From: a virus
Lineage: Duplodnaviria > Caudoviricetes
DNA length: 64,000 nt
Virus record (IMG/VR): IMGVR_UViG_2615840593_000003
Coordinates: 90,765 to 154,764 of that record
Strand: one strand, 5' to 3'
The notes under the pieces were generated by a model. The model did not search any database. It was not told where the DNA came from and saw only the letters and a list, made by a program, of their open reading frames with translations. A program made the position numbers and the translations under genes. Below, one piece after another: positions 5,196-44,641 of this stretch (the first letter of the stretch is position 1; each line of letters starts with the position of its first letter).

Positions 5196-5950
5196 TTATT
5201 TTTGATGAAAAGAGATACGCTGAAGCATTGCTTAAAAATGGTTTTGCGACAAAGAATAAAAATGTGTATGAGTTAAATATTCTAGCAAAGTATCTATTTT
5301 ACAAAGGCTTTAAAGAAGATATTGTGAAGCAAAGATTGATTAAATTCTGTGAAAAACACCTCGAACACTTCAATATTGATGAATGGTATAAAGTGATTAA
5401 CACCACTGTATCTTATGCTAAGAATGGAAATTTGAAGACTGATAAAGAAGTCAATATTACTGAAAAAGAATTAGAAATAATAAAAGATTTAGATACTTTA
5501 CGTGAGCAAAAATTAACCTTTGTCATGTTAGTGCTGTACAAATTTTATAATTATAACAAATTCACAGTAAGTCTAGAAGATTTATTTACTTTGAGTGAAC
5601 TTACAACGATAAATTCTAAAACAAGACTACAGTTGTTACATAAGCTTACATCTAAAGGTTTAATTGATATTAATATGAAAGGAAGAAGATGGGTTAAATT
5701 CGCTGAAAAGAAAAGTGACCCAATGATTACCATAAAAACTTTTGAAAATTTCATATGGGAGTACTTATTTTATATTGGTGAAGGTAAGTATAAAAGATGC
5801 GAAGAGTGCAATTTGAATTTAGTTAAGATGAATATTCACAATCATTCATATTGTGAATATTGCCGAATAGAAATTAAAAAAATAAGAGATAGACTTTATC
5901 AAAAAGAACGATATAATTCTCGTAAAGCAAGTAAACATTCAAAGCCTTGA
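5192..5950 (+). CDS. hypothetical DNA-binding protein (wHTH-like, C-terminal CxxC..CxxC)
   Basis: Overlaps yonO stop; LLHKLTSKGLIDI helix; CEEC..YCEYC. Confidence 0.6.
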   Translation: MIIFDEKRYAEALLKNGFATKNKNVYELNILAKYLFYKGFKEDIVKQRLIKFCEKHLEHFNIDEWYKVINTTVSYAKNGNLKTDKEVNITEKELEIIKDLDTLREQKLTFVMLVLYKFYNYNKFTVSLEDLFTLSELTTINSKTRLQLLHKLTSKGLIDINMKGRRWVKFAEKKSDPMITIKTFENFIWEYLFYIGEGKYKRCEECNLNLVKMNIHNHSYCEYCRIEIKKIRDRLYQKERYNSRKASKHSKP

Positions 5951-6083
5951 TAATATTGGTTTTTGTTGGTAATGAGTCTGAATACATATATGATAGAAAG
6001 AATAATAAAGACTATTTAACAAATTTTTTAATCTAATAAATACATAAACTAACTTTAAGTGGAGAAAAGGAGAAAATTAAATT

Positions 6084-6434
6084 ATGACAGTAAAAATTAA
6101 CACTCAAGAATTAGGTAAAGATTTACAAGAAATTTTAGAAACAAAAGGAATCGTTATTAAAGCTAAAGAAGGTAAAGAAATTGTAGATGAATTTGTAGAT
6201 GCAATTTTCGAACGAGTAAACAAAGGCGAAACTGTAAAATTAGGAGCATATGCTGACTTAGTTCCTAAAACTCGATCAGCTCGTAAAGGTCATAACCCTA
6301 AATTGCTTAAAGATTTAAAAGATCAAGGTGTACCAGAAGTAGAAGCTAAAAAACAAGCTGAAATTGACATTGCTGAAAAACGTGCTGTAGGTTTAAAATC
6401 TCATAAGAAATTAAATGACTTATTAGAAGGTTAA
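6084..6434 (+). CDS. hup: HU family histone-like DNA-binding protein (YonN-like)
   Basis: GETVKLG..RSARKGHNP..IDI HU signature; strong RBS. Confidence 0.85.
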   Translation: MTVKINTQELGKDLQEILETKGIVIKAKEGKEIVDEFVDAIFERVNKGETVKLGAYADLVPKTRSARKGHNPKLLKDLKDQGVPEVEAKKQAEIDIAEKRAVGLKSHKKLNDLLEG

Positions 6435-6531
6435 TTTTAATACATAGCGAATTAATACAGACGTTTTAAATACAAAATGGAGTTAGTGGTAGGGTTATCC
6501 CCTACTCTTCTCTATTAATTAAATTTTAATT

Positions 6532-6596
6532 AAATAATCCTATCTGTAAAATCAGAACAATTAGTTCCTTAAAATTTTGCAGATAGGATTATTTTT
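6532..6596 (+). terminator. long hairpin / intrinsic terminator after HU
   Basis: AAATAATCCTATCTGTAAAAT pairs with ATTTTGCAGATAGGATTATTT, followed by T tract. Confidence 0.7.
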
Positions 6597-6631
6597 GTAC
6601 TTTTACTATACGGAGAAAAGGATGATGAAAT

Positions 6632-6829
6632 ATGGCTAAAATAAAAAAGAACTATGAATATAAAAACGCAGAAGTGAATTTAGAAGAAGGTTTGATCTAT
6701 GAATATGGTAAAACTGATGATGATTTAAAAACTCATTCATTAAATGAAGTTTTAAAAGAATTGGCTTCTTGTGGGCGTACTGATTTTTCTGTTAATACAA
6801 CTACTACTCCTACACCAATTGAAGAGTAA
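6632..6829 (+). CDS. yonK: YonK family protein
   Basis: 65 aa, LEEGLIYEY..HSLNEVLKE pattern; synteny with SPbeta. Confidence 0.7.
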   Translation: MAKIKKNYEYKNAEVNLEEGLIYEYGKTDDDLKTHSLNEVLKELASCGRTDFSVNTTTTPTPIEE

Positions 6830-6840
6830 GGAGTGATTGA

Positions 6841-8058
6841 ATGACTTCTTATGATTTAAAACGTAAAAATACAGAATCACTCGACGATTACCACGTGCGT
6901 TTATTTGAAGATATACCAATACATGAATTAGGTTCGGATGAATTGGCTGAAATACTTAATAAAGAGTATGGTGTTAACTATTCTGAATCTAAATGGCGCA
7001 AGGATTATGCTCAATATGCAAAATGGAAAGATTATATCCTATCCAAACATGTAGATGATTCAGAATTAGATAAGCTTACCGTTAAAAAGCTAGAATTACA
7101 AAAAGAACGCAATAAATTGTCTTCAGAGAAAAATGAGTTGAATAAATGGATACGTGAACAAGCTCGTGCTGAGAACGTGTATGAGAAAATTGAACAAGCA
7201 ATTACAAACCTCTCCACTATTCAAGTACCTGAGATTCAAATCAAAGAATACAACAGTAAACGTACAGCTATTATTGATATTGCCGATGCTCATGTAGGTA
7301 GTCAATGGAAGATTACAGGATTTAATAATGAAGTTATTTCAGAATACAGTATAGAAATATTTAAACGTCGTATGTGGGAACTGTTAGAAAGTACAATTGC
7401 AATTATTGATAAAGAAAAATTGACTAACGTTACCGTATTAAACTTATCAGATTCGATTGACGGATTAATACATATGAATCAATTGCAGTATCAGCAATTA
7501 GGGGTAGCAGATCAAGTAATGTTCTTTGCTGAATTTATGAGTGAATGGCTAAACGCCTTGTCTGAATACGTGACAATTGAATATCGTTCAGTGTTAGGAA
7601 ATCACTCTGAAAATAGATATTTAAATAGTTCTCGTGGAGAACTTCCTCAAGAAAATATGGAACGTTTAATGGTATGGTATTTGAAGACAAGATTGCATGA
7701 AAATAAAAGAATTACAGTACATGATGCTAATAATATCATCTACTTTGACGTTTTAGGCACTAAATTACTTTGTACACATGGTCAAGATGAGAAAAATTTA
7801 GAGTCATCAATTAAAGATTATATGATGATTTATGATGTGAAAGTGCATATGTTGAAGACTGGACATCTACATCATTTACATAATAAAGTAATTGGTGTGG
7901 ACGGATTACAGAATATTGAACATGTACAATCCCCTGCTATCTGTGGATTTAATTCATATAGTCTAAAACTTAAAAAGACAGCTAATGCAGGTACACTAAT
8001 TACCATTTTTGAAGAAGGTTACGGTAAAAGTAATACATATGATATTCGATTTAAATAG
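6841..8058 (+). CDS. calcineurin-like metallophosphoesterase with N-terminal HTH/coiled coil (YonJ-like)
   Basis: DAH, D, GNH, THG, GHLH metallophosphoesterase motifs. Confidence 0.8.
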   Translation: MTSYDLKRKNTESLDDYHVRLFEDIPIHELGSDELAEILNKEYGVNYSESKWRKDYAQYAKWKDYILSKHVDDSELDKLTVKKLELQKERNKLSSEKNELNKWIREQARAENVYEKIEQAITNLSTIQVPEIQIKEYNSKRTAIIDIADAHVGSQWKITGFNNEVISEYSIEIFKRRMWELLESTIAIIDKEKLTNVTVLNLSDSIDGLIHMNQLQYQQLGVADQVMFFAEFMSEWLNALSEYVTIEYRSVLGNHSENRYLNSSRGELPQENMERLMVWYLKTRLHENKRITVHDANNIIYFDVLGTKLLCTHGQDEKNLESSIKDYMMIYDVKVHMLKTGHLHHLHNKVIGVDGLQNIEHVQSPAICGFNSYSLKLKKTANAGTLITIFEEGYGKSNTYDIRFK

Positions 8059-25485: not shown

Positions 25486-27786
25486 ATGAAAATGGCTACC
25501 AATAACCCAATCGAATTGCTAATTGCATTAGGAGTTAACGATGCTAAGTCCAGAAGCAACATTCAAAGCTACTTAGACAATATAAAAAAAGATTTAAAAT
25601 TAGATGTTGAATTAAATGCAATAAAAGGCAATGGGAACACCTTTGATAATATGCGTAAAAAAATTGAGTCTTTACAAAAGCAAGTATCTCAATTAAATCA
25701 AGAGCTAAGTAATATAGGTATGGGTAAGTCTCACTCCCCTACCCTATCTCAAGGAATCAAACAAGATGTTGTAGAGTCAATGAAGTCTCTGGATCAGTTG
25801 AAGAATCACATCAAACAGCAAAATGGTGAATACAGAATTAAGACCGTTGTAGATGCACAAGGATTAGAGAAGATTGATTCTGTTGTTACAAGAGTTAAAA
25901 CTGGTTTAAATCAGATTCAGGAAACGCATCTGAAGCCAATATTAGATACTAATAACCTAGTCGTGGGATTGAAGCAAGTAGGTCAAACTGTTCACGATAT
26001 CAGCTCTAAAGATTTAAAATTGAATGTTTCTAAAGGTATTGAAGAGTTAAATAAGTTTGCTCGACAAGGTGAATTATCTAAAGAACAATATGAGAAGTTT
26101 AAAAGCAGTATATCTTCTTCAATCAACAATACTGAGCTAAGTAAAGTTCTGGAATCGATGAGGAGTATCAACAAAGAAACTGCTCATGAAAACAAGATGC
26201 AAAATTCAATGGCTAATATTAACCAACAAGCTATTGAATTATCTCAAAAGCTAAATCAGTTTACTAAAGATAAAAATAACGCTTTCGATCCCGTTATTGT
26301 AGATAAATTTATTGGCAAATTGGATAAATTAGCAGGTGTAAATTTTGATTCAGTTAAAGGTATGAAATCTGCTAATAATGACTTCTCTTCCGTTGAAAAA
26401 GAAATAAATACATATATTAAGCTACAAGAAAAATATAAAGATGTTACGGATAATTTAGAATTACTTCAACGTCAAGGTAAAATTACATCATCTGATTTAG
26501 CTAAATTCACTCAAGATGCGAAGGTTGCTAATACTGTAACTGAGTTAAACAATTTAAATAAAGAAATAAATAAATTTGCTAAGAATACACAAATTGACGC
26601 TCAAACGTCAAATGCTTTTAAGAATATTGGTAATGAAGTTGAACAATTAAATAATAAATTTAAAAATGTTACAAACAAGTTCACGGTATCTCCAAATAAT
26701 ACTTTATTTACTCAGATCAAATCAGATATTTATTCTATCAATAGTATGAAGATCAATACACCTGAATGTATTAAAACTCTTAATAAATTGATTACTGATA
26801 CGTCTAAGAATATTCGACAACTCGGACAAGACAGTAACAATTTACAGCAATTTGAAACTAAGACTCGTGAAATAAATACCTTGCTACAACAAATGAAAGA
26901 GTCTGGATTACTTACTAATAAAGAAATACATAAGTTTACTGATTCATTATCAAGAATTGAAACTGGTAATTTAGCTAATGTTAATAACCTGTTAACTCAA
27001 ATGAGTGATAAGTTTAATAAGTTAAAATCCAGCGAAAAGAATTTAGATACATTTGAAAAACAGCAAAATTCGCTTTCTCGACTTAACAGTGAGTTAACTA
27101 GAACTGAAAAACTTTTTCCTCGTACAATGGATAAATCCAAAGCTGAAGAGTTAAGAAAAGAAATTGAGAAGCTTAGTAAGTTAAACCTTATTAATCCAAC
27201 TGCATTAAAAGATAACCAGAAAGAAATAGATAAATTAAAAGAAAAAGTTAAACAGTTTAACGCTGAATCTACTCAGGCTTCTAAAGGCTCTACAGGAGTA
27301 CTAGAGGCGTTTGGTGTGGCAATGCAAAAATTCCCAATTTGGATGTCGGCAACAACGATTTTCTATGGAGCTGTTCGCACAGCCAAGGAATTTGGAACTG
27401 TATTGGTTGATATTGATTCTAAATTAGTATCCATTCAAAAAGTAGTAGATAACGGTACAGATATGGGTGCAATATTTGATAGAGCAACTCAATCTGCTGA
27501 GAAATTTGGACAATCAATTTCTCAAGCGTTAGATGCCTATATCGAATTTGCACGACAAGGATATAAAGGTGCTGAGTTAGGGACTCTTGCAGACGCAGGT
27601 TTAGTTGCTTCTAATGTAGGCGAGATCTCAGCACAGCAAGCAAGTGAGTACATGACGGCAAGTCTCGTGCAATGGAAGAAAGATGCATCAGAGGCTATGG
27701 GTATTATTGATAGTTGGAATAACATTTCCAACAATTTCGCAACAACGACAGAAAAGTTAGCTCGTGGTCAAGCTCGCGCAGGCGCT
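25486..27786 (+). CDS. tape measure protein, exon 1
   Basis: Coiled coil followed by TP901-type core (FARQG..NNFATTTEKLARGQARAGA), cut off by group I intron. Confidence 0.9.
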
Positions 27787-28061
27787 TAATAAAATAGGCA
27801 TTCGTAGAAGCGATTCTACGTCTAAACTTCCCTAAACGGTGGAACTCTCTTTGAGACAATACCGTGCTAAATCGAAATAAATATTTTCGTAAATGCCGAA
27901 CGACTAGTAAGACCTATTTATATAGGCATACACTACAAGCTAATGGTAGTGGAAATGGGAAGGCTCTCAATGAGAGTTTGATATAGTCTACTCTTTATGG
28001 TGACATAAAGCAGTTCATAAGAGAACGATATAAGTTTTGCGAACTTATATGAATATAAAGG
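27787..28061 (+). ncRNA. group I intron 1 (275 nt, no ORF) in tape measure gene
   Basis: Exon ends in U with P1 GCU/AGGC; P AAACGGTGGAA, Q AATACCGTG, R CGACTA, S ATATAGTC; terminal G; removal restores the frame. Confidence 0.9.
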
Positions 28062-28142
28062 ACTGCCAATGCTATGGGACTTGAGTATGACCAACTCAAT
28101 GCAATTATCGGAACCGTTACAGCGTCAACCAAACAATCGGGT
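28062..28142 (+). CDS. tape measure protein, exon 2 (27 codons: TANAMGLEYDQLNAIIGTVTASTKQSG)
   Basis: Continues the TP901 core between RAGA and DEVGNFVK. Confidence 0.9.
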
Positions 28143-28550
28143 AAACTTTATCGCCCCTTTGCACAGCAATGTGCATAGCAAACCCTGAATATGCTGGGAA
28201 CTCCTTAGAGCCATCATTAGTAGTTATATTTAGAAATTTATATAACACCTCAAAATATGAAGGATTGGACAATCAGCAGAGATAGACCTAAGTGTAATTT
28301 ACATATGGTAAGCTCTCAACGACTATCAAGGGGTAACTCATAATTAAATTAAAATTAATCACATTCCACTTTTTAATAAACAAAATACATAAAATCATAT
28401 TTTTACATTGTGCATAATTATATATTATGTTAATATTTAACTATAGGGATTGATTAGGGAGTAGTTAACCTAATTGACAAGTAAAGCCTCCTAACTTTAC
28501 TTCCATATTTAATATAATTAGGAAAATTACTGTAGGAGGTAATTTAATTT

Positions 28551-30392
28551 ATGTGTGAAAATACATATGTAAACATTCAAACTAGTGAAGTTTTAGACTT
28601 AAACAGACTGGAAGATATAAAATCTAATGCATTATTAAAACACTCCCCTCACCTATTCGAAGAATGGGATTTTGAGAAGAATAATGAATTGGGATTGGAC
28701 ATATACAATGTTACAAAAGGTAGTCAGAAAAAAGCTTGGTGGTACTGTACTAAATGTAAAAGTAAGTATGATATGGAAGTAGTATACCGCAAAAAAGGTT
28801 CTAATTGTCCATTTTGCTCAGGAAGAAGAGTGAACAATACGAATTCATTAAAAACTATTAAGCCATTATTGGCTGAAGAATGGGATTATGTCAGAAATAA
28901 CAAGTCACCAAGCGATGTTACATGTAATTCTAGAGAAGTTGTATGGTGGAAATGCATAGACTGCAAAGAGTCATATGATATGGCAGTTTATAATAAATCA
29001 AAAGGTAAAGGCTGTCGTTACTGTAGTGGAAGAACAGTATCGTTATCAAACTGTCTTGCAACTAAAGATTTAAAGTTAGCAAAAGAATGGCATCAGAAGC
29101 TAAACGGCGAATTAACTCCTTATGATGTTACTTGTGGAGAAAGTAGAGTTGTTTGGTGGCTATGTCCAGATTGCGAAAGTTCTTATAACATGAGTTTAAA
29201 TGACAGAACTTCTAAAAAATGCAATTGTCCTTATTGTAATGGTCGAAGAGTAAATATAACAAATTCTTTAAAGTCAATGAACACTGTAATAGCATCTCAA
29301 TGGCATCCAACAAAGAATGGTGATTTGACTACAGAGAGTATACATTATCATTCTTCTGAAGTTGTCTGGTGGTTAGGAGAATGTGGTCATGAATGGGAAA
29401 ACGCAGTAAGGAATAGGAGATTTGGAAATGCAGATTGTCCAGAATGTAGTAAATTATCTAATAAAGCACCTCACATTGCACGTCTCTTACTTAATAAAAG
29501 TGAATCATGTGAATTCACTGTAGGCAGTAATAAAAAGGTTGACTGGCAATGCGATTGCGGACAAATAGTAAAAAATAAAACTATAAATGAAATTTGTAGT
29601 AAGGGTTATTTACCATGTGCGAATTGTTCAGATGGCAAATCGTATCCTGAAAAGTACATGTTCACTGTTTTAAAATTATTGAAGGTGGATTTTGAATGGG
29701 AGAAAGTTTTTGAGTGGTCGAACAACAAAAGGTACGATTTTTATATAGAATATTTAGGAAGTAAAATATTAATAGAATGTCACGGCATGCAACACTATGA
29801 ATCTAGTTTCGAATACTTAGGCAGTAGAACACTAATAGAAGAAATAGAAAATGATGCAGTTAAATATAAAATGGCAATCAGTAATGGTATAGATAAATAT
29901 ATTATTATTGACTGTAGAAAATCTTCATCTACATTTATAAAAAACTCCATACTAAACAGTGAACTAGTTAAGATATTTGATATAAAAAACTTAGAATGGA
30001 ATAAAGTTTCATTATTGGCAGAAAAAAGCCTAGTATTATACATCAATGAAATATGGAACAATGGTAACAAGAGTATAAAAAATATATCTAAAGAGATGAA
30101 TTTATGCTCAGCCACTGTAACTTCGTATTTAAAAAGAGGTATGGAAAATGGGTGGAATGATTATTCTCCTAATAAATCAAGGAAAAATGGCAGTAAGTCA
30201 AGAAAGAAGGAAATTGTCAAGATTGATTACGATACTATTGTTATTTTTGAAAGTGCTAGTAAAGCATACCTTGATACCAACATAGACTCTTCTAGTATTA
30301 TTGCAGTTTGTAGAGGTAAGAGAAAAACAGCAGGTGGATTTAAATGGATGTATCTAGAGGATTATGAAAAAGAATATGGAAAACTTTCATGA
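28551..30392 (+). CDS. intron-encoded putative homing endonuclease (zinc-ribbon repeats + Vsr/DUF559-like nuclease + NUMOD1)
   Basis: Repeated WWxCxxC..CPxC units; RYDFYI..IECHGMQHY; C-terminal IIAVCRGKRKTAGGFKW. Confidence 0.75.
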   Translation: MCENTYVNIQTSEVLDLNRLEDIKSNALLKHSPHLFEEWDFEKNNELGLDIYNVTKGSQKKAWWYCTKCKSKYDMEVVYRKKGSNCPFCSGRRVNNTNSLKTIKPLLAEEWDYVRNNKSPSDVTCNSREVVWWKCIDCKESYDMAVYNKSKGKGCRYCSGRTVSLSNCLATKDLKLAKEWHQKLNGELTPYDVTCGESRVVWWLCPDCESSYNMSLNDRTSKKCNCPYCNGRRVNITNSLKSMNTVIASQWHPTKNGDLTTESIHYHSSEVVWWLGECGHEWENAVRNRRFGNADCPECSKLSNKAPHIARLLLNKSESCEFTVGSNKKVDWQCDCGQIVKNKTINEICSKGYLPCANCSDGKSYPEKYMFTVLKLLKVDFEWEKVFEWSNNKRYDFYIEYLGSKILIECHGMQHYESSFEYLGSRTLIEEIENDAVKYKMAISNGIDKYIIIDCRKSSSTFIKNSILNSELVKIFDIKNLEWNKVSLLAEKSLVLYINEIWNNGNKSIKNISKEMNLCSATVTSYLKRGMENGWNDYSPNKSRKNGSKSRKKEIVKIDYDTIVIFESASKAYLDTNIDSSSIIAVCRGKRKTAGGFKWMYLEDYEKEYGKLS

Positions 30393-30420
30393 GTAGGGCT
30401 AACTCCCCTACTCTTTTTTT
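30391..30420 (+). terminator. intrinsic terminator inside intron 2, after the endonuclease
   Basis: GAGTAGGGCTAACTCCCCTACTC followed by TTTTTTT. Confidence 0.75.
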
Positions 30421-30544
30421 ATTTATCTCACCTTATTAAGCAGTGGAATGTGATTAAAGGTGATTTATATTATGAGTTAATGGTATAGTCTACTCCCACT
30501 TCTTTGTGAAGTGTTAAAATATAGCGAAAGCTAGGGTATATTTG

Positions 30545-33500
30545 GATGAAGTTGGTAACTTCGTAAAAAATGTGCTACCTCGTTTAGTTAGTGCACCTGC
30601 TCAAGATGCATTAAGTATGGTTAATGTTTCTCTAACAGACAAACAAGGAAACATGCGTGACATCATTCAGGTTTATACTGAAGTAGCTAATAAAGTTAAA
30701 GATCTGAATGATACTGAACGGATTTCAGTAATGGAAGGTCTTGCAGGAAAATATCACATATCTCGTATGCAAGCATTACTAGATGACTTAGGTTCTGCTA
30801 AATCAATGTACAGAGAAATGTATGAGACATCTAAAAATTCAGCAGGTTCAGCAATGCGAGAAAATGAAATCTACATGAAATCATTAGAAGCACGTATTGC
30901 ATTAACACGAGTGGAATTCGAGAAGCTCGCAGTCTCAATAGGAGACGCTTTTCTGACAGATGGCATGGTATCATTCCTTCAATTAGCTTCAGGTGGATTA
31001 GGTGTAATAACGAGTCTTGTGAATGGAGTTGGATTACTCCCTGTAGTTTTAGGTACAACAGGAATGGCAACTTTTTTATTATCTACCAAGTTTAAAGAAC
31101 TAAGCGTAAGTGTCGGAAGCTCTATTGTTTCATTAGTAGGATTTAGAGGAACTGCGACAGCAGTAACTACGGCTACCAACCTATTATCTGTAGCGACAAA
31201 AGGTCTAGGAAATGCGTGGAAAGGATTCTTATCATCTCTTGGCGTTGGACTACCTCTTGTTGCCATCGGTTTTGTTATTGAAAAACTAATGAGTAAGATG
31301 GGTGAAGCTCGTCAAAAAGCCGAAGAATTAGAATCTGCTAACAAGGAAATGCTTAATTCATATAGTCAAAATGCTTCTAATATAGATGAGTTATCAAAGA
31401 AGTATGAAGAATTAGAAGAAAAAATGGCATTACCTAATGTAGATTCTAAAACTATTAATGAATATCGTGACATCCAAAATGAAATAGGTACAAAGCTTCC
31501 TTCTTTGGTTACTGGGGAAGATTCGTATGGTAACAAATTAATAGGTACTAGTAATGCACTTAAAGTTAAAATCGATTTACTCAAACAGCAACTAGAGATA
31601 GACAAGCAGATAGCTGAAGCAGAAGCAAATTCTAGAAGAAATGAAGACATTGAAACTTATAATTCAGATATGAGTTCGGCTAATGATAAAATGCAAGGAC
31701 GTCTACAGGTATTAGCAAACTATGATGAAAATTCTTTAAAATGGGCGGATAAATTTGATATTCCTGATAAATTAGTTATTAGATTAGCTGATGAAAATGG
31801 AAAACCATTATTAACTACTGCTGATGAGATTGCAAAAAAATTAAATGATATTAAAACTAAACACCTTGAAGCTAAAAATTCAGGTGATGATGGCTTAGTA
31901 GAGTACTATGGTAAATTATTATTCATGTTAGAAGATACGTATAAGGCTGTATTACCACATGAACTTGAGATGAATAAATCAACTGCTAACCTAAAATCTC
32001 AATATGTAGCATCCTTAAATGCAATGATAGGAACAAACTCATCATTGCAAGATTCTACAAAAGAAATGGCTCAAGTCTTCTCATCACAATTACTTTCAAT
32101 GTCTGATTCCAGTAACATTAATGATTTAAAAAGTGGCTTAGAAACACTATTCTCTTATAACGGTAATGATGAACTATCTAGCAAGGCAAATGAGATTACT
32201 ACCAATATTTCTAAATCATTCAGCGATATGGCTAATGCTACAGAAGAAGATTTCGGAAAATCTTCAGCAAGCGTCAAAACTATGTTGGATGGATTGCCAA
32301 AAAGTCTAGAGGCAGTTATTAGTAAAGAAAAAGACAGAAAAGCTGTAATGGATTTACTAAACAAGACATATGAAAATGCCATTACAGAGCATAGTAAACT
32401 GGCTAACGAAGCTAAAGCGACTGGCAAAAGCTTCGATGAAGTAAGAGCAGGTATGGATGCAGTCAGTGAAGGTGCAGAGCAATCTTCTGAATCAGTATCG
32501 GAATTAGCCTCAAAAATGCAAGACTTCAAAGATGTAACTGAGCAAATGGCAGGTGTATCTCAATCTGGAGTCGATGCGTTAAACGACCTAATTTTCCAAT
32601 ATGACTCACTTACTAACAAATTAGCAGGTTACACACAACAACAACTTCAAGATATTTACACTAAAGAAAATTTAACATCCAAAGAACGAGAAGTTAAAAA
32701 GGTTCTAGATGATCGTGTAGCTATAATGAAGGAATTATCCAGTGTCTACCCTGACTTATTAGGTAAAGATGGTAAAGCTATTGTCTTATCAGATGAGAAG
32801 CGTAGTGCTATCATAGCAGAAAATAAAGCAAATGAAATACTATTAAAAGGTTACAAACTTGCTCGTGATGGAAAGTTAACTGCTGAACAGCAAGCTACAT
32901 TAGCATCTGCTAGTGGGGCTAAAGCACGTATCAATAACTTAAAAGTAGAAATTTCGATGCTTGAAAAGTATGTCAGAGCTAATGAAATAGCATTAGGTTC
33001 TGCTGTAGCAATTAATGCAATGCCGTTATCTGGCGTTGCAGGTTCAGCCATGAAAATGGCAATGGAAGCACAACAAAGTATACTTCAAGGTAGACTTGCA
33101 GGAGCTAGAGCAGAATTAGACGGACTTGCAGGTAGTCTTAGTACTAATATTGGAAATATAAGTGATTTCTCTGCTGAAATCGAAAATTCGTCTAAATCAA
33201 CTAATAGTAATACTAAAGCTACAAAAGAGAACAATGCTGAAAAAGAGAAATCCATTTGGATTACTGACAAGTATAAGCAAAAATTAGAAGAGCTTAATTT
33301 AGCAATCGAAAAACAGCAAAAAATACAAGCTAGATTTCCTGAACATTCTAAGGAGTACCGCAAATCACTAGAAGCTCAAATTAAACTTGAAAAAGAAAAA
33401 TTAGCACTCCAAGAAAAGCAAGTCAAAGCAATACAATCTCAAATTGCATCAGGTAAAATTCAGCAAACTGGTAACATTTCAGTTAATTCCTCAAACGGTA

Positions 33501-36500
33501 AAATTAATGGATATAACGGTAAAATTTCTTCTGGTTATGGTGAACGTACAGACAATCATCGTGGTGTTGATATTGCAATGCCTACTGGTTCCCGAGTAGA
33601 TGCCCCTGTTTCTGGCAAAGTAATTCGTGCAGGTTCTGCAACTTCAAAACAAAACAATATGCACTGGTCATACGGTAATGTTGTGATGATTGAAGACCAA
33701 CAAGGTATTCGACATTTACTAGCTCACCTTGACAAAACAATGGTTAAGATTGGTGACTATGTAGAAGCAGGAGCTCAAATTGGTAATAGTGGTAGCACTG
33801 GTAAGTCTACGGGTCCCCACTTACACTACGAACAAAATAATTCAAAGGGACAGACAATTAACCCTACTGCTACATTAAATTCTATTCGTGCAGGCAGTAC
33901 CTCTACCCCATCTGCATCGAGTCAACAAGCTACAGTTTGGAACTACTTTAAAAACAAAGGCTTAAATGATAAAGCTATTGCAGGACTTATGGGTAACATC
34001 CAACAGGAATCAACCTTTAATACAAACGCAGGCAAGAACGCTCCTAAGAATGCTTACGGATTAGTTCAATGGAGAGATGGTCGCAGAGAAGGACTTAACT
34101 CTTACGCAAAAAGTATGGGTAAAAGTGCTAATGATTTACAAGTTCAATTAGACTACATCTGGAAAGAATTAAATGATAAAGAGAAAAGCGCTCTTGCTTC
34201 CCTTCAACGTTCTGATTTGTCATCTTCGCAACATGCTTCTGAATTTGAAAGATTATTTGAGCGTTCAGGCGGTTCGCAAGTTGGAAAACGTCAAAACTAT
34301 GCTAATCAATATTACAGTCAATATGCAGGTACTAATGGCGGTGCAGGAGTTGGTATTGACTCAGGACAACAAGCTATTGACCAAGCTAAATCTGATTTTT
34401 TAAGCTTACAAAAAGACGTACTTAACTCTAAGGAAACAATTGAAAACTTAAATGACATGTTGGTTAAAGCTAACGTTGCTTATTACGATGACCTTATTAA
34501 TGGTATAGATCGTTCTATTAATAAGTCTAATGTTTTAGCCGAACAACAATTAGAGCACTCACAAGCATATCGAGATGAATTAGATAAACAAACTAAACAT
34601 CTAAAATACAAACAATCTTTACTACATAAAGAAGCTAATTACATTCGTGAGCAACTTAAACGTACTGACATCTCCCCTGCTTACAAAGATGAATTAACTA
34701 ATCAACTAAGCGAATTATCTTTAGCTTGGTGGGATGTTAACGAAAGTATTACGGAAGTAGACGAGAAGATTCAAAATAGTAAAGTTGAATCAATCATAGT
34801 TAAATATGAAGAACTACGTCAAATACAAGATAAAGCTATTAACAGTGAAAAAGCAAAAATTGAAGAATTGGACACTTCTTCTGCTAGATATGTAAAAACT
34901 CTCGCAAATATAAACAATGCAATGAGAGAAAAGCAAAATTCCAATCGCTATGAATTGACTCAGTTAACTGCTTTGGTAAATGGCAATAAGCTATCTGGTG
35001 AAGCTTTAGAATCTGCTAAAAACCGTATAGAAGAATTGACTACTGGTATTAAAGAATTACAAATTGCCATTCAGAATGGTGATTACGATATTTTAATTAA
35101 TATTAAAACTCAATCTGACGAAAAAGTCGGTTTAATGGAATCTGCTATAAATCAAGCTGAAGCAATTCGTAAAATGTTTGACGAAGGTTCTGCCGATTAC
35201 GTTAAGTATACAAAAATTATTCTTGAAGAGTATGAAAAAATAGCTGATCAGCATTTAGTAACTAGAGATGCTTTAGCTGAAGAATTACAGCAACGTGATA
35301 TTACTGCCGAACGTATCAAAGAAGTAAAAAAACTAATAACAGATGAACAACTTGCATATCTGAACGCTACCCTATCAATTAAAGATTATACAAAGCAAGT
35401 CGAGGAAGCTAATAAATCTCAACTCGAGAGTATTGCAGATAAAGCTATCAATGCATATAAGGAATATATCCAAGAGCGTAGAGATGAACATATAAAAACA
35501 CTAGATGATGAAATTAAGAGAGAAAATGAAAAGCATGAGCAAATCATAAAAAATCTTAATGATGAGATGGATTTATTTAGAAAGAATGTAGATGAGAAGC
35601 TAAAACTTATTGATCGTCAAGAATCGCAGCGAAGTTATGACATGGAAATTTCTGATTTAGAAAAAGAACGTAATGATATTCAAAGTCAATACGATAATCT
35701 AGCCTTAGATAAATCTCATGAAGGTAAGGCGAAACGCAAAAAGCTTAAAGAACAACTAGATGAAATTGACAAGCAAATTGAAGAAAAACGCCATAATCGT
35801 GAAATTGAATTACGTAAAGAGTCTTTAAATGATGCACTGGAAACTAAAGAAGAAGAAGTAAATGAAAAAATTGAGCTTCAAGATAAAGAGCATGAGAATG
35901 TAATCAATAAGATTAATCGTGAAAAAGAATATTGGGAAAAGCATTATAAAGATCTGCTTAATGATGAACGAAAGTTTGCCGAAATAAGAGAAGCTATATT
36001 ATCTGGTCATTTTGAAAAAGTAGATGCTGAATTCAAAAAGTTTGCGGATGAAATGAAAGCTACAATGCCTGAACTTGCCGATACGCTTGATGACACAATG
36101 AAAGCTGTAGGTATGACGATTCGTCAAAATGTAATTGATAATTTGGAAGAAGCACTCAAATTATTTGAAGACTTCAACAAAAGTCAAATTTCAAAGGATG
36201 ATGGCTCATTCAATTTCAATCCTAATAACGGCAATGAAGTTAAATCATCTAATGGTAATCTATCCAAAGGCGATTTACAAGTATTACTAGGTAAATTCTT
36301 GTATGACAATGTATCTGCACAAACATCTGGAAAAGATAAAGATACTGTTCGTCAAACGGCTACACAATTAGCTGAACAGGGCAGAAAAAATGGTAGTACT
36401 CAATTCACTAAAGATGACGTTAATTTTAATGATTCGATTAAAGGTCTTACTCAAGCAGATATGGATGCTTTATATGAATATTTTGATAGCAATAAAGGCA

Positions 36501-37219
36501 TTTTAGGTGGAAAATATGACGGCTTCATTGATCAATTCATCGGTAGCATTTCTGGTAATAAACATGAATCTACAAATGACGGAAGTTTATCAAAAGCCGA
36601 TATGCAAGTTATGTTAGGTAAATTTATTTATGAAAAGGTTGTACCTGATAAATCATTAAACGCCAATACTAAAACAGCATTAAAAGCTAAAGCAGATGGA
36701 GTTGCTGCACAAGGAAGAAATGGTGATTCAAAGCTTTCAGAAAGTGTAACATTCGATTCTATCAAGAGCACATACTCATCGCTACAAGTTAATCAATTGA
36801 AATCGTTCTTTGAATCTAATCTAGGTATGATTGATAATGCTACAACTAGAGATTTAATGCAGAAAAAGATAGCTTCACTTGATACAGGTGGATTTATGAA
36901 TTGGGCTGGAACAGGTATTGACGGTAAAGGTGGGAAAGCAATTATTGCTCATCCTAATGAAATCATGTTGAATAAAGTTGATACAAAAGGATTTTTCAGT
37001 TCAATAAATGTAATGGACAAAATTATGTCTAGTCTATCCCCTCTCCTATCTAAGTTTACTCCACCACAAAAAACATCACATATTGTTAGTGGAGATACTT
37101 ATGGCGATATTAAAATAAACTTCAATATTGACAAAATGAACGGTGACAGAAACGATTTAAATAAATTTAATAAAATGATTGATGATGATCTATTACGTAG
37201 GAAAGGAATGAGAAAGTAA
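30545..37219 (+). CDS. tape measure protein, exon 3 (M23 peptidase and phage tail lysozyme domains)
   Basis: DEVGNFVK continues the core; HRGVD..HLD..GPHLHYE (M23); WNYFKNKGL..GNIQQES..GLVQW (lysozyme). Confidence 0.9.
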   Translation, partial: DEVGNFVKNVLPRLVSAPAQDALSMVNVSLTDKQGNMRDIIQVYTEVANKVKDLNDTERISVMEGLAGKYHISRMQALLDDLGSAKSMYREMYETSKNSAGSAMRENEIYMKSLEARIALTRVEFEKLAVSIGDAFLTDGMVSFLQLASGGLGVITSLVNGVGLLPVVLGTTGMATFLLSTKFKELSVSVGSSIVSLVGFRGTATAVTTATNLLSVATKGLGNAWKGFLSSLGVGLPLVAIGFVIEKLMSKMGEARQKAEELESANKEMLNSYSQNASNIDELSKKYEELEEKMALPNVDSKTINEYRDIQNEIGTKLPSLVTGEDSYGNKLIGTSNALKVKIDLLKQQLEIDKQIAEAEANSRRNEDIETYNSDMSSANDKMQGRLQVLANYDENSLKWADKFDIPDKLVIRLADENGKPLLTTADEIAKKLNDIKTKHLEAKNSGDDGLVEYYGKLLFMLEDTYKAVLPHELEMNKSTANLKSQYVASLNAMIGTNSSLQDSTKEMAQVFSSQLLSMSDSSNINDLKSGLETLFSYNGNDELSSKANEITTNISKSFSDMANATEEDFGKSSASVKTMLDGLPKSLEAVISKEKDRKAVMDLLNKTYENAITEHSKLANEAKATGKSFDEVRAGMDAVSEGAEQSSESVSELASKMQDFKDVTEQMAGVSQSGVDALNDLIFQYDSLTNKLAGYTQQQLQDIYTKENLTSKEREVKKVLDDRVAIMKELSSVYPDLLGKDGKAIVLSDEKRSAIIAENKANEILLKGYKLARDGKLTAEQQATLASASGAKARINNLKVEISMLEKYVRANEIALGSAVAINAMPLSGVAGSAMKMAMEAQQSILQGRLAGARAELDGLAGSLSTNIGNISDFSAEIENSSKSTNSNTKATKENNAEKEKSIWITDKYKQKLEELNLAIEKQQKIQARFPEHSKEYRKSLEAQIKLEKEKLALQEKQVKAIQSQIASGKIQQTGNISVNSSNGKINGYNGKISSGYGERTDNHRGVDIAMPTGSRVDAPVSGKVIRAGSATSKQNNMHWSYGNVVMIEDQQGIRHLLAHLDKTMVKIGDYVEAGAQIGNSGSTGKSTGPHLHYEQNNSKGQTINPTATLNSIRAGSTSTPSASSQQATVWNYFKNKGLNDKAIAGLMGNIQQESTFNTNAGKNAPKNAYGLVQWRDGRREGLNSYAKSMGKSANDLQVQLDYIWKELNDKEKSALASLQRSDLSSSQHASEFERLFERSGGSQVGKRQNYANQYYSQYAGTNGGAGVGIDSGQQAIDQAKSDFLSLQKDVLNSKETIENLNDMLVKANVAYYDDLINGIDRSINKSNVLAEQQLEHSQAYRDELDKQTKHLKYKQSLLHKEANYIREQLKRTDISPAYKDELTNQLSELSLAWWDVNESITEVDEKIQNSKVESIIVKYEELRQIQDKAINSEKAKIEELDTSSARYVKTLANINNAMREKQNSNRYELTQLTALVNGNKLSGEALESAKNRIEELTTGIKELQIAIQNGDYDILINIKTQSDEKVGLMESAINQAEAIRKMFDEGSADYVKYTKIILEEYEKIADQHLVTRDALAEELQQRDITAERIKEVKKLITDEQLAYLNATLSIKDYTKQVEEANKSQLESIADKAINAYKEYIQERRDEHIKTLDDEIKRENEKHEQIIKNLNDEMDLFRKNVDEKLKLIDRQESQRSYDMEISDLEKERNDIQSQYDNLALDKSHEGKAKRKKLKEQLDEIDKQIEEKRHNREIELRKESLNDALETKEEEVNEKIELQDKEHENVINKINREKEYWEKHYKDLLNDERKFAEIREAILSGHFEKVDAEFKKFADEMKATMPELADTLDDTMKAVGMTIRQNVIDNLEEALKLFEDFNKSQISKDDGSFNFNPNNGNEVKSSNGNLSKGDLQVLLGKFLYDNVSAQTSGKDKDTVRQTATQLAEQGRKNGSTQFTKDDVNFNDSIKGLTQADMDALYEYFDSNKGILGGKYDGFIDQFIGSISGNKHESTNDGSLSKADMQVMLGKFIYEKVVPDKSLNANTKTALKAKADGVAAQGRNGDSKLSESVTFDSIKSTYSSLQVNQLKSFFESNLGMIDNATTRDLMQKKIASLDTGGFMNWAGTGIDGKGGKAIIAHPNEIMLNKVDTKGFFSSINVMDKIMSSLSPLLSKFTPPQKTSHIVSGDTYGDIKINFNIDKMNGDRNDLNKFNKMIDDDLLRRKGMRK

Positions 37220-43480: not shown

Positions 43481-44641
43481 GTGTCACTGCCAATAAATTA
43501 TTTAGAATTTAATAACCCTATTCATATTGTCTGGCGTAGTGGATTACCAAACGATCCATTTATAGACCGTTTAGATATTGTTCGTGTAGTAAATCAACGT
43601 GTTTTTCTGTTAGAAATACCAGATGAAATGTTTAGAGTTAGAATTTCAGGTATGTTTGAGATTAACTATGAAAAGTTTATGAAGCAAAACTTAGAGAAAA
43701 ATGAATTTTATGTAGACTATACTAATGGATTTATTTACTTTCATGCATCAAAAGAAGCCGAAACAATGTCGATAGTGTACAAAGGGCGAGGTCTTATCCT
43801 CTACCCTTCCACACGCATTGTTCATTATGACGGAACAGATTCAACTGAGACATTACATGAAATAATAGAAAAAAGTAAATCGCAAGTCCAAGAATTGATT
43901 GATAGAACTGATAATTATGAGGAATATTTAAAGAAACTTGTAATTGCTATCAATAATTCTAACGATGCTACTGACCAAGCATTAATTGCTACTCAAAAAG
44001 CTAATGATGCTACTAAGTTAGTTAATGATGCTTATGAAACAACAGTTTTAATTTATCAACCTTTCGTAAACACATACGATGAAATTTTTCAGAAGTTCCC
44101 CTACCCTGAAGTTGGATGGACAACGCAGGTATATGATACGGGTATTCGCTATAGATGGAATGGGAAAGCATGGATTCCCATTGATGCTCTAGGTGGAAAC
44201 GTCCCATTAGCGAATGAAGTAATTAACGGTTTGATGAGTAAAGAGCAATTCATTAAAGTAAAAAATATAACTAAATTCGTTAATGAAAAGACAATTGTGT
44301 TCATTATTCCAAAAGATATATTACAAGGAGTTCAAGATCCAGAGGTTGAGTTTGAATGGGATGGTGAAATAATCGATGTTAAAGCATTGGTTTCTTTAAA
44401 AGGACTACAACCTACTCCAGTTCAAATACAGAAATCTTCAAATTTAAAAGATTGGACTGATGTTACAGTCAATCCATTAACAATTGATGCAGATAGTTAC
44501 CGTAACAATAAAAAATTTACATTAATTAATACAAAAGTTAAGGAAGGTGATGTATTTAGACTATACATCCCTTCTTTTAATGTTGATGCTCAAAATTTAT
44601 CTGTTAATGTGAAAGTTTCATTGAACGACTCCCTCAGCTAA
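43481..44641 (+). CDS. tail/baseplate structural protein
   Basis: FYVDYTNGFIYF, coiled coil, NGLMSKE motif. Confidence 0.55.
   Translation: MSLPINYLEFNNPIHIVWRSGLPNDPFIDRLDIVRVVNQRVFLLEIPDEMFRVRISGMFEINYEKFMKQNLEKNEFYVDYTNGFIYFHASKEAETMSIVYKGRGLILYPSTRIVHYDGTDSTETLHEIIEKSKSQVQELIDRTDNYEEYLKKLVIAINNSNDATDQALIATQKANDATKLVNDAYETTVLIYQPFVNTYDEIFQKFPYPEVGWTTQVYDTGIRYRWNGKAWIPIDALGGNVPLANEVINGLMSKEQFIKVKNITKFVNEKTIVFIIPKDILQGVQDPEVEFEWDGEIIDVKALVSLKGLQPTPVQIQKSSNLKDWTDVTVNPLTIDADSYRNNKKFTLINTKVKEGDVFRLYIPSFNVDAQNLSVNVKVSLNDSLS

What the first reader, a model, noticed from the sequence alone, without database searches (positions are those of the whole stretch)
25486..37219. Tape-measure gene split by two group I introns around an 81-nt micro-exon
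Seen: joining 25486-27786, 28062-28142 and 30545-37219 gives one continuous frame (..ARAGA|TANAMGLEYDQLNAIIGTVTASTKQSG|DEVGNFVK..) of about 3018 aa. Both upstream exons end in U, both introns end in G and carry P/Q/R/S elements. ORF callers give two wrong genes and miss exon 2. Established: group I introns are known in phage structural genes, including tape-measure genes of Bacillus prophages. Two only 81 nt apart make tail assembly depend on double self-splicing.
Basis: partly seen in the sequence, partly recalled or inferred. Interest (0 to 1): 0.7.

Follow-up and report, generated by a model that had tools for sequence, protein, structure and literature searches.

The report
Two introns split a tape-measure gene

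Summary
Confirmed. Joining 25486-27786, 28062-28142 and 30545-37219 gives one open 3018-codon frame. It aligns without a gap across both junctions to the uninterrupted tape-measure protein of Lysinibacillus phage LC76P1. 35 of 38 long homologs also align gaplessly there. Pfam and PHROG profiles each lack exactly 27 positions between exon 1 and exon 3.

Intron 1 (275 nt, no ORF) scores 48.0 bits on Rfam Intron_gpI, against a cut-off of 50, with a U-G pair at the splice site. Its same-site homolog in metagenome contig L028 scores 60.6.

Intron 2 (2402 nt) carries a 613-aa zinc-finger/Vsr-like homing endonuclease in the P8 loop. Its ORF-less same-site homolog in L028 scores 51.8 bits. Compensatory changes support both folds.

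Splicing itself is inferred; no RNA data exist. Tape-measure introns in Bacillus prophages, small exons between phage introns and this endonuclease type are all published. It is therefore a new member of a known kind.

Relatives show 7 interruption sites by their DNA in this domain (3 more from two distant Clostridioides difficile phages or ORF ends alone), up to four introns per gene, and a 25-nt exon.

The parts
25486..27786 (+). Tape-measure exon 1 (767 codons); ends in U27786
   Evidence: ORF. PhageMin_Tail profile positions 2-104. PHROG 4211 tape-measure profile up to position 740.
27787..28061 (+). Intron 1: 275-nt group I intron without an ORF. It starts with TAA TAA and ends in G28061. 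It has P7.1 and P7.2 hairpins.
   Evidence: RF00028 scores 48.0 bits, E 1.9e-11, with U27786 paired to G in P1. Helices P1-P9.2 were verified. It is about 89% identical to the same-site intron of L028, with 8 compensatory pair changes. That homolog scores 60.6 bits.
28062..28142 (+). Exon 2: 81-nt micro-exon of 27 codons; ends in U28142
   Evidence: It fills the 27 missing profile positions. It is conserved in 34 of 38 long homologs and is present as an 81-nt exon in L028.
28143..30544 (+). Intron 2: 2402-nt group I intron with an endonuclease gene in the loop of an extended P8; ends in G30544
   Evidence: Verified helices are P1 (GGGU/GCCC with a U-G pair), a 6-bp P10, P2, P3, P4, P7, P8, a 13-bp P8a, P9 and P9.1. 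RF00028 matches model positions 60-148 at 22.4 bits. In 8 related copies, 26 of 50 predicted pairs show a compensatory change. The ORF-less same-site homolog in L028 scores 51.8 bits.
28143..28369 (+). Intron 2, 5' ribozyme segment: guide sequence, P2-P7 5' strands, P3, and the P8/P8a 5' strands
28551..30392 (+). Intron-encoded 613-aa putative homing endonuclease. It has four detected DUF4379 treble-clef zinc-finger repeats, a Vsr/PD-(D/E)XK-like nuclease domain and an I-HmuI-type C-terminal DNA-binding tail.
   Evidence: Pfam DUF4379, E 5.5e-64, 4 stretches. PHROG families named homing/intron-encoded endonuclease. Model of residues 321-613 has pLDDT 92. Fold matches are weak: TnsA, R2 endonuclease, I-HmuI, I-Bth0305I and Vsr. 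Columns C14 C16 C36 C39 Y75 D76 E89 G92 D115 K118 L207 are invariant in all 45 aligned sequences.
30391..30413 (+). Terminator-like hairpin plus T-run directly after the endonuclease stop codon, inside intron 2
   Evidence: A similar hairpin follows the ORF in L023 (sequence printed).
30443..30544 (+). Intron 2, 3' ribozyme segment: P8a/P8 3' strands, J8/7, P7 3' strand, P9, P9.1 and the terminal G
   Evidence: It is 97% identical to the L004 copy.
30545..37219 (+). Tape-measure exon 3 (2224 codons plus stop), with Peptidase_M23 and phage tail lysozyme domains
   Evidence: PhageMin_Tail profile positions 132-201, Peptidase_M23 and Phage_lysozyme2. PHROG 4211 from profile position 768.

Best explanation
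The window carries the tail tape-measure gene of a large Bacillales-type prophage. Its closest named relatives are from Lysinibacillus. The gene is interrupted in its conserved PhageMin_Tail core by two group I introns that flank an 81-nt exon.

The primary transcript must lose both introns by guanosine-initiated self-splicing. Each 5' splice site is set by a U-G pair between the exon's last U and the intron's guide sequence, and each intron ends in G. Splicing yields one mRNA for a 3018-aa tape-measure protein. Without it, translation stops at TAA TAA right after exon 1.

Intron 1 has no ORF and cannot move by itself. Intron 2 carries a zinc-finger/Vsr-like homing endonuclease in the P8 loop. 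That enzyme would cut intron-less alleles and spread the intron by repair. Intron 1, 81 bp away, could be co-converted in the same event.

Shown here: the open joined frame, homology across both junctions, the RNA helices, the covariation and the homologs at the same sites. Inferred: splicing in vivo, endonuclease activity and co-conversion.
For: Frame and homology:
- One open 3018-codon frame after joining.
- Gapless 72% alignment to the uninterrupted LC76P1 protein across both junctions.
- 35 of 38 long homologs are gapless across residues 755-810.
- Exactly 27 profile positions are missing between exons 1 and 3 in both Pfam and PHROG.

Intron 1:
- RF00028 48.0 bits, E 1.9e-11, with U27786 paired to G in P1.
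- All helices are present, including P7.1 and P7.2.
- Of 29 substitutions against the same-site L028 intron, 16 form 8 compensatory pairs in P2 (three), P3, P4, P7.1, P7.2 and P9.2. Only 2 break a pair (my reading).
- 23 of 69 RNAalifold pairs are compensatory among 3 sequences.

Intron 2:
- A 4-bp P1 with a U-G pair, and a 6-bp P10 to exon 3.
- P2-P9.1 verified.
- 26 of 50 predicted pairs are compensatory in 8 copies. In P3, 4 of 5 pairs are compensatory and none is broken.
- Its 5' half resembles a feature annotated Intron_gpI in phage phiCD211.

Same arrangement elsewhere: L028 has both introns at the same two sites around the same 81-nt exon, scoring 60.6 and 51.8 bits, both above the cut-off.

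Presence/absence:
- L003 and LC76P1 lack both introns.
- L004 lacks intron 1 but has intron 2.

Gene context: distal tail protein and a 1282-aa minor tail protein lie downstream.
Against: - No RNA evidence exists; splicing is not shown.
- Intron 1 is 2 bits under Rfam's gathering score (48.0 against 50).
- A whole-window gathering scan and a 3.3-kb E-value scan gave no group I hit.
- The 3' part of intron 2 alone gave no RF00028 hit, and the intact intron 2 cannot be scored because of its 2.1-kb insert.
- P1 of intron 1 has one mismatch and two G-U pairs, and I found no convincing P10 for it (my reading).
- A terminator-like hairpin inside intron 2 could hinder transcription into exon 3.
- The provirus record is estimated at 88% complete, so activity of the phage is unknown.
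Confidence: 0.88

Rival explanations
1. The introns no longer splice, or splice too poorly. The tape-measure gene is then effectively broken and the prophage is decaying.
For: No transcript data exist. Intron 1 is just under the Rfam cut-off. There is a terminator-like hairpin inside intron 2. The record is 88% complete by CheckV.
Against: All core helices are intact in both introns. There are 8 compensatory against 2 disruptive changes relative to L028. All 3018 exon codons and the 613-codon endonuclease ORF are open. The micro-exon is conserved at 16-25 of 27 residues in 34 of 38 long homologs.
Confidence: 0.07
2. Exon skipping is a major outcome. The 5' splice site of intron 1 is joined to the 3' splice site of intron 2. 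This drops the in-frame 81-nt exon and gives a 2991-aa isoform.
For: 81 nt is a multiple of 3. Skipping of an internal exon between two phage group I introns has been measured in phage SIOphi and reported for Twort orf142 (passages of PMC11878797).
Against: The 27-aa segment is conserved in 34 of 38 long homologs and none lacks it cleanly, so a skipped product is probably not functional. Intron 2 has its own P1 on the micro-exon, and its P10 pairs to exon 3.
Confidence: 0.05
3. The gene works as two separate proteins, of 767 aa and about 2225 aa, without any RNA splicing.
For: Gene callers report such halves for the window and many relatives. An in-frame TTG lies one codon before exon 3.
Against: The conserved 27-aa segment would be lost and the PhageMin_Tail domain cut in two. 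The break points differ between close relatives, as expected of mobile insertions and not of a stable split. The intervening RNA is under structural selection.
Confidence: 0.02

Closest known systems
Group I introns TMP-IVS1, -IVS2 and -IVS3 in tape-measure genes of Bacillus cereus-group prophages (Tourasse and Kolsto 2008, PMC2504315; section 8 and passages read)
   Same: Same host gene class and same intron class. Up to two introns occur per gene. Stop codons lie at or near the intron start. Similar introns sit at different sites and different introns at the same site, and there are ORF-less copies. Insertion is in the conserved part of the gene.
   Different: This is a different phage group and a far larger tape-measure protein (3018 aa against >1200 aa). 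The two introns are only 81 nt apart. The endonuclease is of a different type. I did not compare the sequences with the B. cereus introns.
Closely spaced group I introns with small exons and exon skipping: phiNIT1 ribonucleotide reductase and SIOphi terminase (PMC11878797, passages read); Twort orf142 (Landthaler and Shub 1999, known to me only as cited there; the paper was not held)
   Same: Several group I introns lie in one phage gene with a small internal exon between two of them.
   Different: Those are mostly DNA-metabolism or packaging genes and have cDNA evidence. Here there is none, and the exon sizes in those papers were not seen.
Intron_gpI feature between 'Minor tail protein' and 'Tail tape measure protein' of Clostridium phage phiCD211 (LN681537.2)
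   Same: A ribozyme related to the 5' half of intron 2, in the same domain of a tape-measure gene. By my reading the gene has two interruptions around a 33-nt exon, the first at the position homologous to site B here.
   Different: The host is a Clostridioides phage and the protein is only about 25% identical. There is no endonuclease ORF, and the coding sequence is not joined in the record.
Zinc-finger-repeat plus EDxHD/Vsr-like homing endonucleases of phage group I and II introns (PMC12350094, passages read); I-Bth0305I (PMC3239194, passages read)
   Same: Several ~60-aa repeats of the DUF4379 kind are followed by a nuclease domain with weak Vsr/I-Bth0305I fold similarity, all encoded inside a phage intron.
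   Different: This protein also has an I-HmuI-type C-terminal tail. No sequence-level match to I-Bth0305I was found. I did not align it to the proteins of that paper.

Membership tests
Group I intron (Rfam RF00028) | 5' splice site after a U that pairs with G of the internal guide sequence in P1 | tested here: met
   Intron 1: U27786 pairs with G in the Rfam alignment (helix). Intron 2: GGGU (28139-28142) pairs with GCCC (28153-28156), with the terminal U-G pair.
Group I intron (Rfam RF00028) | The last intron nucleotide is G | tested here: met
   G28061 and G30544. The positions are fixed by the gapless protein alignment.
Group I intron (Rfam RF00028) | Conserved core: P3-P8 with the P3/P7 pseudoknot and the J8/7-P7 motif | tested here: met
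   Helix tables. Compensatory changes.
Group I intron (Rfam RF00028) | Covariance-model score at or above the gathering score (50 bits) | tested here: not met
   Intron 1 scores 48.0 bits. Intron 2 gives only a partial hit of 22.4 bits because of its 2.1-kb insert. Same-site homologs in L028 score 60.6 and 51.8 bits. I still file both as group I introns because the shortfall is 2 bits for one and a technical limit for the other.
Group I intron (Rfam RF00028) | Guanosine-dependent self-splicing with exon ligation | not testable with these tools
   No RNA run is listed. In vitro splicing or cDNA is needed.
Subgroup IA2 (intron 1) | Extra hairpins P7.1 and P7.2 between P7 and the 3' strand of P3 (rule recalled by me, from no call) | tested here: met
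   P7.1 is 27913-27917/27922-27926. P7.2 is 27931-27936/27946-27951. No subgroup-specific models were available.
EDxHD/Vsr-like homing endonucleases | Vsr-like nuclease fold with conserved acidic and histidine catalytic residues | tested here: inconclusive
   Foldseek gives I-Bth0305I (3r3p) at prob 0.98, E 0.046, and Vsr (1cw0) at prob 0.96. No hit reaches E <= 0.001. D76, E89 and D115 are invariant and H95 nearly so. The residues were not mapped onto the EDxHD motif. phmmer against PDB found only the zinc-finger repeats.
EDxHD/Vsr-like homing endonucleases | Site-specific cleavage of the intron-less allele | not testable with these tools
   Needs a cleavage assay on an intron-less target such as the LC76P1-type or L003-type sequence.
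Phage tail tape-measure protein (Pfam PF10145 PhageMin_Tail) | PhageMin_Tail domain in a very long protein, encoded upstream of the distal tail and tail-tip genes | tested here: met
   Exon 1 alone passes the Pfam cut-off (41.5 against 33.2 bits).

The most novel reading that the evidence does not exclude
The conserved core of these giant tape-measure genes is a landing pad that self-splicing introns hit again and again. One ribozyme lineage, the intron 2 type with guide GCCC, has moved between at least four sites that end in GGU. It travels with endonucleases whose zinc-finger arrays differ in length.

Where introns lie as close as here, splicing may not be all-or-none. In-frame skipping of the 81-nt exon would give a second tape-measure isoform. 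Alternatively, slow double splicing would act as a timer on tail assembly.
Probability: 0.12. Interest if true: 0.7.

Novelty: new member of a known kind. Interest (0 to 1): 0.4.

Why it matters
For annotation, the gene is reported as two unrelated ORFs and the 27-codon exon is missed. The protein collection holds 39 other such N-terminal fragments, so tape-measure lengths, and tail lengths inferred from them, are wrong for this phage group.

For biology, an essential late structural gene here depends on two ribozymes acting 81 nt apart. Relatives carry up to four introns and exons as short as 25 nt in the same domain. That makes this phage group a convenient natural system for three questions:
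- In what order do neighbouring group I introns splice?
- Are small exons skipped?
- Are ORF-less introns spread by a neighbour's endonuclease?

None of this changes current concepts.

Tried and rejected
- **Group II intron, because of the 613-aa ORF:** rejected. The ORF has no reverse-transcriptase match and the flanks fold as group I.
- **Intein:** rejected. Both intervening sequences have stops in the exon frame within 0 and 11 codons.
- **Whole-window Rfam at gathering threshold, and a 3.3-kb E-value scan:** no group I hit. Only narrow scans found them.
- **The 3' end of intron 2 alone:** no RF00028 hit.
- **Transcript evidence:** no RNA holder is listed, only one DNA run that may be the source.
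- **Host and relatives from genomes:**
  - One genome-contig scan gave 2 loci.
  - An order-level search gave 5 of 401 genomes with only distant matches.
- **A J8/7-P7 motif search in the window:** 11 matches against 8.1 expected. The third exact match (43712-43722, minus strand) lies inside a plus-strand ORF and is taken as chance.
- **RF00028 over the whole 154.8-kb record:** only intron 1.
- **RF00028 over the phiCD211 record:** no candidate, although the record annotates one.
- **Sequence match of the endonuclease to solved structures:** only DUF4379 repeat proteins. NCBIfam gave nothing useful.
- **Scripts:** the script machine was lost. A per-helix count on the 7-sequence alignment was never obtained and was replaced.
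- **Twort paper (PMC22036):** not held.
- **Supplements:** closed. Supplementary Table S1 of PMC11878797, a list of split phage genes, may already include tape-measure cases.
Full report
**The observation**

The ORF list shows a 767-codon ORF (25486-27789), a 613-codon ORF (28551-30392) and a 2225-codon ORF (30542-37219), all on the plus strand.

Reading the sequence gives these boundaries:
- Exon 1 ends in T at 27786 and is followed at once by TAA TAA.
- The 81 bases 28062-28142 end in T.
- The bases just before 28062 and 30545 are G.

A script joined the three pieces by coordinates. The result is 3018 codons with a single, terminal stop.

**Is the joined product real?**

Pfam PhageMin_Tail matches exon 1 at profile positions 2-104 and exon 3 at 132-201. 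PHROG 4211 (tape measure) matches exon 1 up to position 740 and exon 3 from 768. Each profile lacks exactly 27 positions, the size of the micro-exon.

The joined product aligns at 72% identity over residues 640-900 to the uninterrupted 2732-aa protein of Lysinibacillus phage LC76P1. Its single 1-residue gap lies far upstream of both junctions.

I also examined all 38 long homologs from the protein collection:
- 38 of 38 align.
- 37 span residues 760-802.
- 35 have no gap in 755-810.
- 34 carry a 27-residue segment that is 16-25/27 identical and ends in the same five residues (TKQSG; TKESG in one).
- The four outliers are distant, at 21-30% identity.

Downstream lie a distal tail protein and a 1282-aa minor tail protein. 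This fits a tape-measure gene.

**Intron 1 (27787-28061, 275 nt, no ORF)**

A narrow Rfam scan gives Intron_gpI over the full model at 48.0 bits against a cut-off of 50, E 1.9e-11. U27786 pairs with G in P1. The same score came from a scan of the whole 154.8-kb record, where it was the only hit. The window-wide gathering scan and a 3.3-kb E-value scan had missed it.

I verified P1, P2 (7 bp, GCGA loop), P3, P4, P5, P7, P7.1, P7.2, P8, P9 (GUGA loop), P9.1 and P9.2 base by base. P1 has one mismatch and two G-U pairs besides the splice-site U-G. I saw no good P10.

The two hairpins between P7 and the 3' strand of P3 are what I recall as the mark of subgroup IA2. That rule comes from no call.

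Its 3' half is about 76-82% identical to several places in other phage genomes:
- The AR9 terminase gene, annotated as joined from five pieces.
- The gap of a split recA in Enterococcus phage ECP3.
- The gap between two large ORFs of Clostridioides phage AR1086-1. That gap scores 110.1 bits on RF00028.

**Intron 2 (28143-30544, 2402 nt)**

The 5' part matches RF00028 model positions 60-148 (P4-P6 to P7) at 22.4 bits. The 3' part alone gives nothing.

By direct pairing:
- P1 is GGGU/GCCC with the terminal U-G.
- A 6-bp P10 joins the first six bases of exon 3 to the six bases just 5' of the guide G.
- P2 has a GCAA loop.
- P3 has 5 bp and P4 has 6 bp.
- P7 is GACUA/UAGUC.
- P8 has 7 bp and is extended by a perfect 13-bp P8a. 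The 2.1-kb insert sits in its loop.
- P9 is present, and P9.1 has a GAAA loop.

Eight copies of this intron type were aligned over the 5' domain: the window, L004, L023, L026, L027, L028, L030 and phiCD211. 26 of 50 predicted pairs keep pairing through changes on both sides. In P3, 4 of 5 pairs do so and none is broken; in P4, 4 of 6.

Three ORF-less copies folded whole give 23 of 69 such pairs, including P8 and P9.1. The 3' segment is 97% identical between the window and L004 and alignable in all seven copies.

**The same arrangement elsewhere**

Metagenome contig L028 has introns at exactly the same two sites around the same 81-nt exon. Both lack ORFs and score 60.6 and 51.8 bits, above the cut-off.

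Against the L028 copy, intron 1 differs at 29 positions plus a 2-nt indel. Sixteen of these differences form 8 compensatory pairs and 2 break a pair. This is my reading on the helices.

L003 and LC76P1 have neither intron. L004 has intron 2 but not intron 1. This presence/absence pattern is what mobile introns give.

**The intron 2 ORF**

The 613-aa protein has four detected DUF4379 treble-clef zinc-finger repeats (E 5.5e-64) and a weak I-HmuI NUMOD-like end. PHROG families named homing or intron-encoded endonuclease match it.

I aligned the C-terminal part (residues 321-613) with 44 of its 87 homologs, chosen by hand across the score range. Eleven columns are invariant, counted from residue 321:
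- Four cysteines (C14, C16, C36, C39).
- Y75, D76, E89, G92, D115, K118 and L207.

The AlphaFold model of residues 321-613 has pLDDT 92.

Foldseek against the PDB gives only weak matches, none at E <= 0.001. They are consistent in kind: TnsA, the R2 endonuclease, I-HmuI (prob 1.00), the I-Bth0305I catalytic domain (prob 0.98, TM 0.61 on the target) and Vsr.

A 2025 paper describes just such endonucleases in phage group I and II introns. They have three to five ~60-aa CapR/DUF4379-like domains followed by a domain distantly related to EDxHD/Vsr (PMC12350094, passages). PMC3239194 defines the EDxHD family (passages).

The same protein family, at 37-39% identity and with different repeat numbers, sits in the intron 2-type introns of L023 and L026. 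L004 instead carries a 140-aa PBECR3 nuclease ORF in the same loop.

**Mechanism**

Shown: the frame, the junction homology, the RNA architecture, the covariation and the polymorphism between relatives.

Inferred:
- Both introns self-splice from the late transcript, and only doubly spliced RNA gives the full protein.
- The endonuclease drives homing of intron 2.
- Intron 1, only 81 bp away and without an ORF, can ride along by co-conversion.

Possible regulation of the endonuclease:
- Its Shine-Dalgarno sequence (within 28533-28540) pairs with 28486-28493 in both the minimum-energy and centroid folds (z -2.18; 5 of 200 shuffles fold as well).
- A terminator-like hairpin follows its stop codon.

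Because the micro-exon is in frame, exon skipping would give a 2991-aa product. Such skipping has been measured in other phages (PMC11878797). The conservation of the segment argues that a skipped product would not work.

**The wider picture**

Eleven related loci of this family were read as DNA.
- Four have no interruption in residues ~620-865: L002, L003, L005 and L021.
- Seven have at least one: L004, L023, L026, L027, L028, L029 and L030.

Break points in the window's numbering, by my reading:

| Site (residue) | Loci |
|---|---|
| 620/621 | L023 |
| 675 | L028, L029 |
| 685 | L030 |
| 740 | L030 |
| 767 | window, L028 |
| 786 | L023 |
| 794 | window, L004, L023, L027, L028 |
| 862 | L004, L026, L028 |

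- The distant phiCD211 gene has breaks at the positions homologous to 794 and 805. AR1086-1 has one near 860.
- L028 has four introns in one gene, scoring 23.5, 60.6, 51.8 and 55.8 bits.
- L023 has a 25-nt exon between two interruptions.
- The intron 2 type occurs at 740, 794 and 862, always after GGU. By read-through tails of ORFs it also occurs at 798.
- Of 40 short N-terminal fragments in the protein collection, one is the window's own. The others end at many points, mostly between residues 738 and 863. For these I had no DNA, and some may be contig ends.

**Novelty**

The following are already in print:
- Group I introns at three sites in tape-measure genes of B. cereus-group prophages, two per gene in some strains, with stop codons at or near the intron start, and with similar introns at different sites and different introns at one site (PMC2504315, section 8).
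- Small exons between two phage introns, and exon skipping (PMC11878797).
- This endonuclease type (PMC12350094).

My searches 'group I intron' + 'tape measure' (38 papers) and 'phiCD211' + 'intron' (4 papers), of which I read passages of only the papers cited here, showed me no description of this phage group or of the site density seen here. That is a matter of degree. I did not see supplementary tables.

**Verdict**

It is a new member of a known kind, of moderate interest.

Noticed in passing
L028:5400-7063: One tape-measure gene on a metagenome contig has four group I introns: 5400-5621, 5898-6174, 6256-6542 and 6747-7063. Their RF00028 scores are 23.5, 60.6, 51.8 and 55.8 bits. The middle two flank the same 81-nt exon as in the window. 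All four follow a T and end in G.
   Followed up: yes
L023:6441-6738; L011:3550-3870: In L023 a 273-nt intervening sequence (6441-6713) gives no Rfam hit. It nevertheless has a perfect 7-bp P1 with a U-G pair and a 6-bp P10 by my reading. It is followed by a 25-nt exon (6714-6738) and then an intron 2-type intron. A look-alike element in phiCD211 (3550-3837) precedes a 33-nt exon. It may be a group I lineage that RF00028 does not see.
   Followed up: partly
L004:5004-5426: The L004 copy of intron 2 carries, in the same P8 loop, a 140-aa PBECR3 (Barnase/EndoU/RelE-like nuclease) ORF instead of the zinc-finger endonuclease (Pfam E 1.1e-20).
   Followed up: partly
L004:6205-6520: A third intron site, after residue 862 of the window's protein, is occupied in L004 by a 316-nt group I intron (RF00028 53.0 bits). 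The site is empty in the window. L026 holds an intron 2-type intron with an endonuclease ORF at the same site.
   Followed up: yes
window 30391-30413: A terminator-like hairpin with a T-run lies right after the endonuclease stop codon, inside intron 2 and upstream of exon 3. A similar hairpin follows the ORF in L023.
   Followed up: no
window 28486-28540: The endonuclease's Shine-Dalgarno sequence is paired with an upstream CCUCC-containing stretch in the minimum-energy and centroid folds (z -2.18). This could keep the endonuclease untranslated in the precursor RNA.
   Followed up: partly
proteins P0128-P0166: Short N-terminal tape-measure fragments in the protein collection end at many different points, mostly between residues 738 and 863. 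Several have read-through tails typical of the intron 2 5' end, some at residue 798, four codons after site B. No DNA was available for them.
   Followed up: partly
proteins P0114, P0118, P0119, P0122, P0102, P0108, P0121: Several close long homologs begin only 23-94 residues before the position that aligns with residue 700. Their genes may be cut by a further upstream interruption, such as the 675 site seen in L028.
   Followed up: no
A7 columns 10-14 and 297-301; window 28152-28156 and about 30535-30539: The guide sequence of intron 2 (GCCC) can also pair with a GGGUA stretch near the intron's 3' end. Four of these five bases (GGUA) are invariant in all seven copies, and the first G is C in one copy. 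The meaning is unknown.
   Followed up: no
L009:1330-1582 (OR397124.1 31568-31820): Clostridioides phage AR1086-1 has an unannotated group I intron (RF00028 110.1 bits) between two large ORFs that together look like its tape-measure gene. It lies near the position homologous to residue 860 here. Exact splice sites were not resolved.
   Followed up: partly
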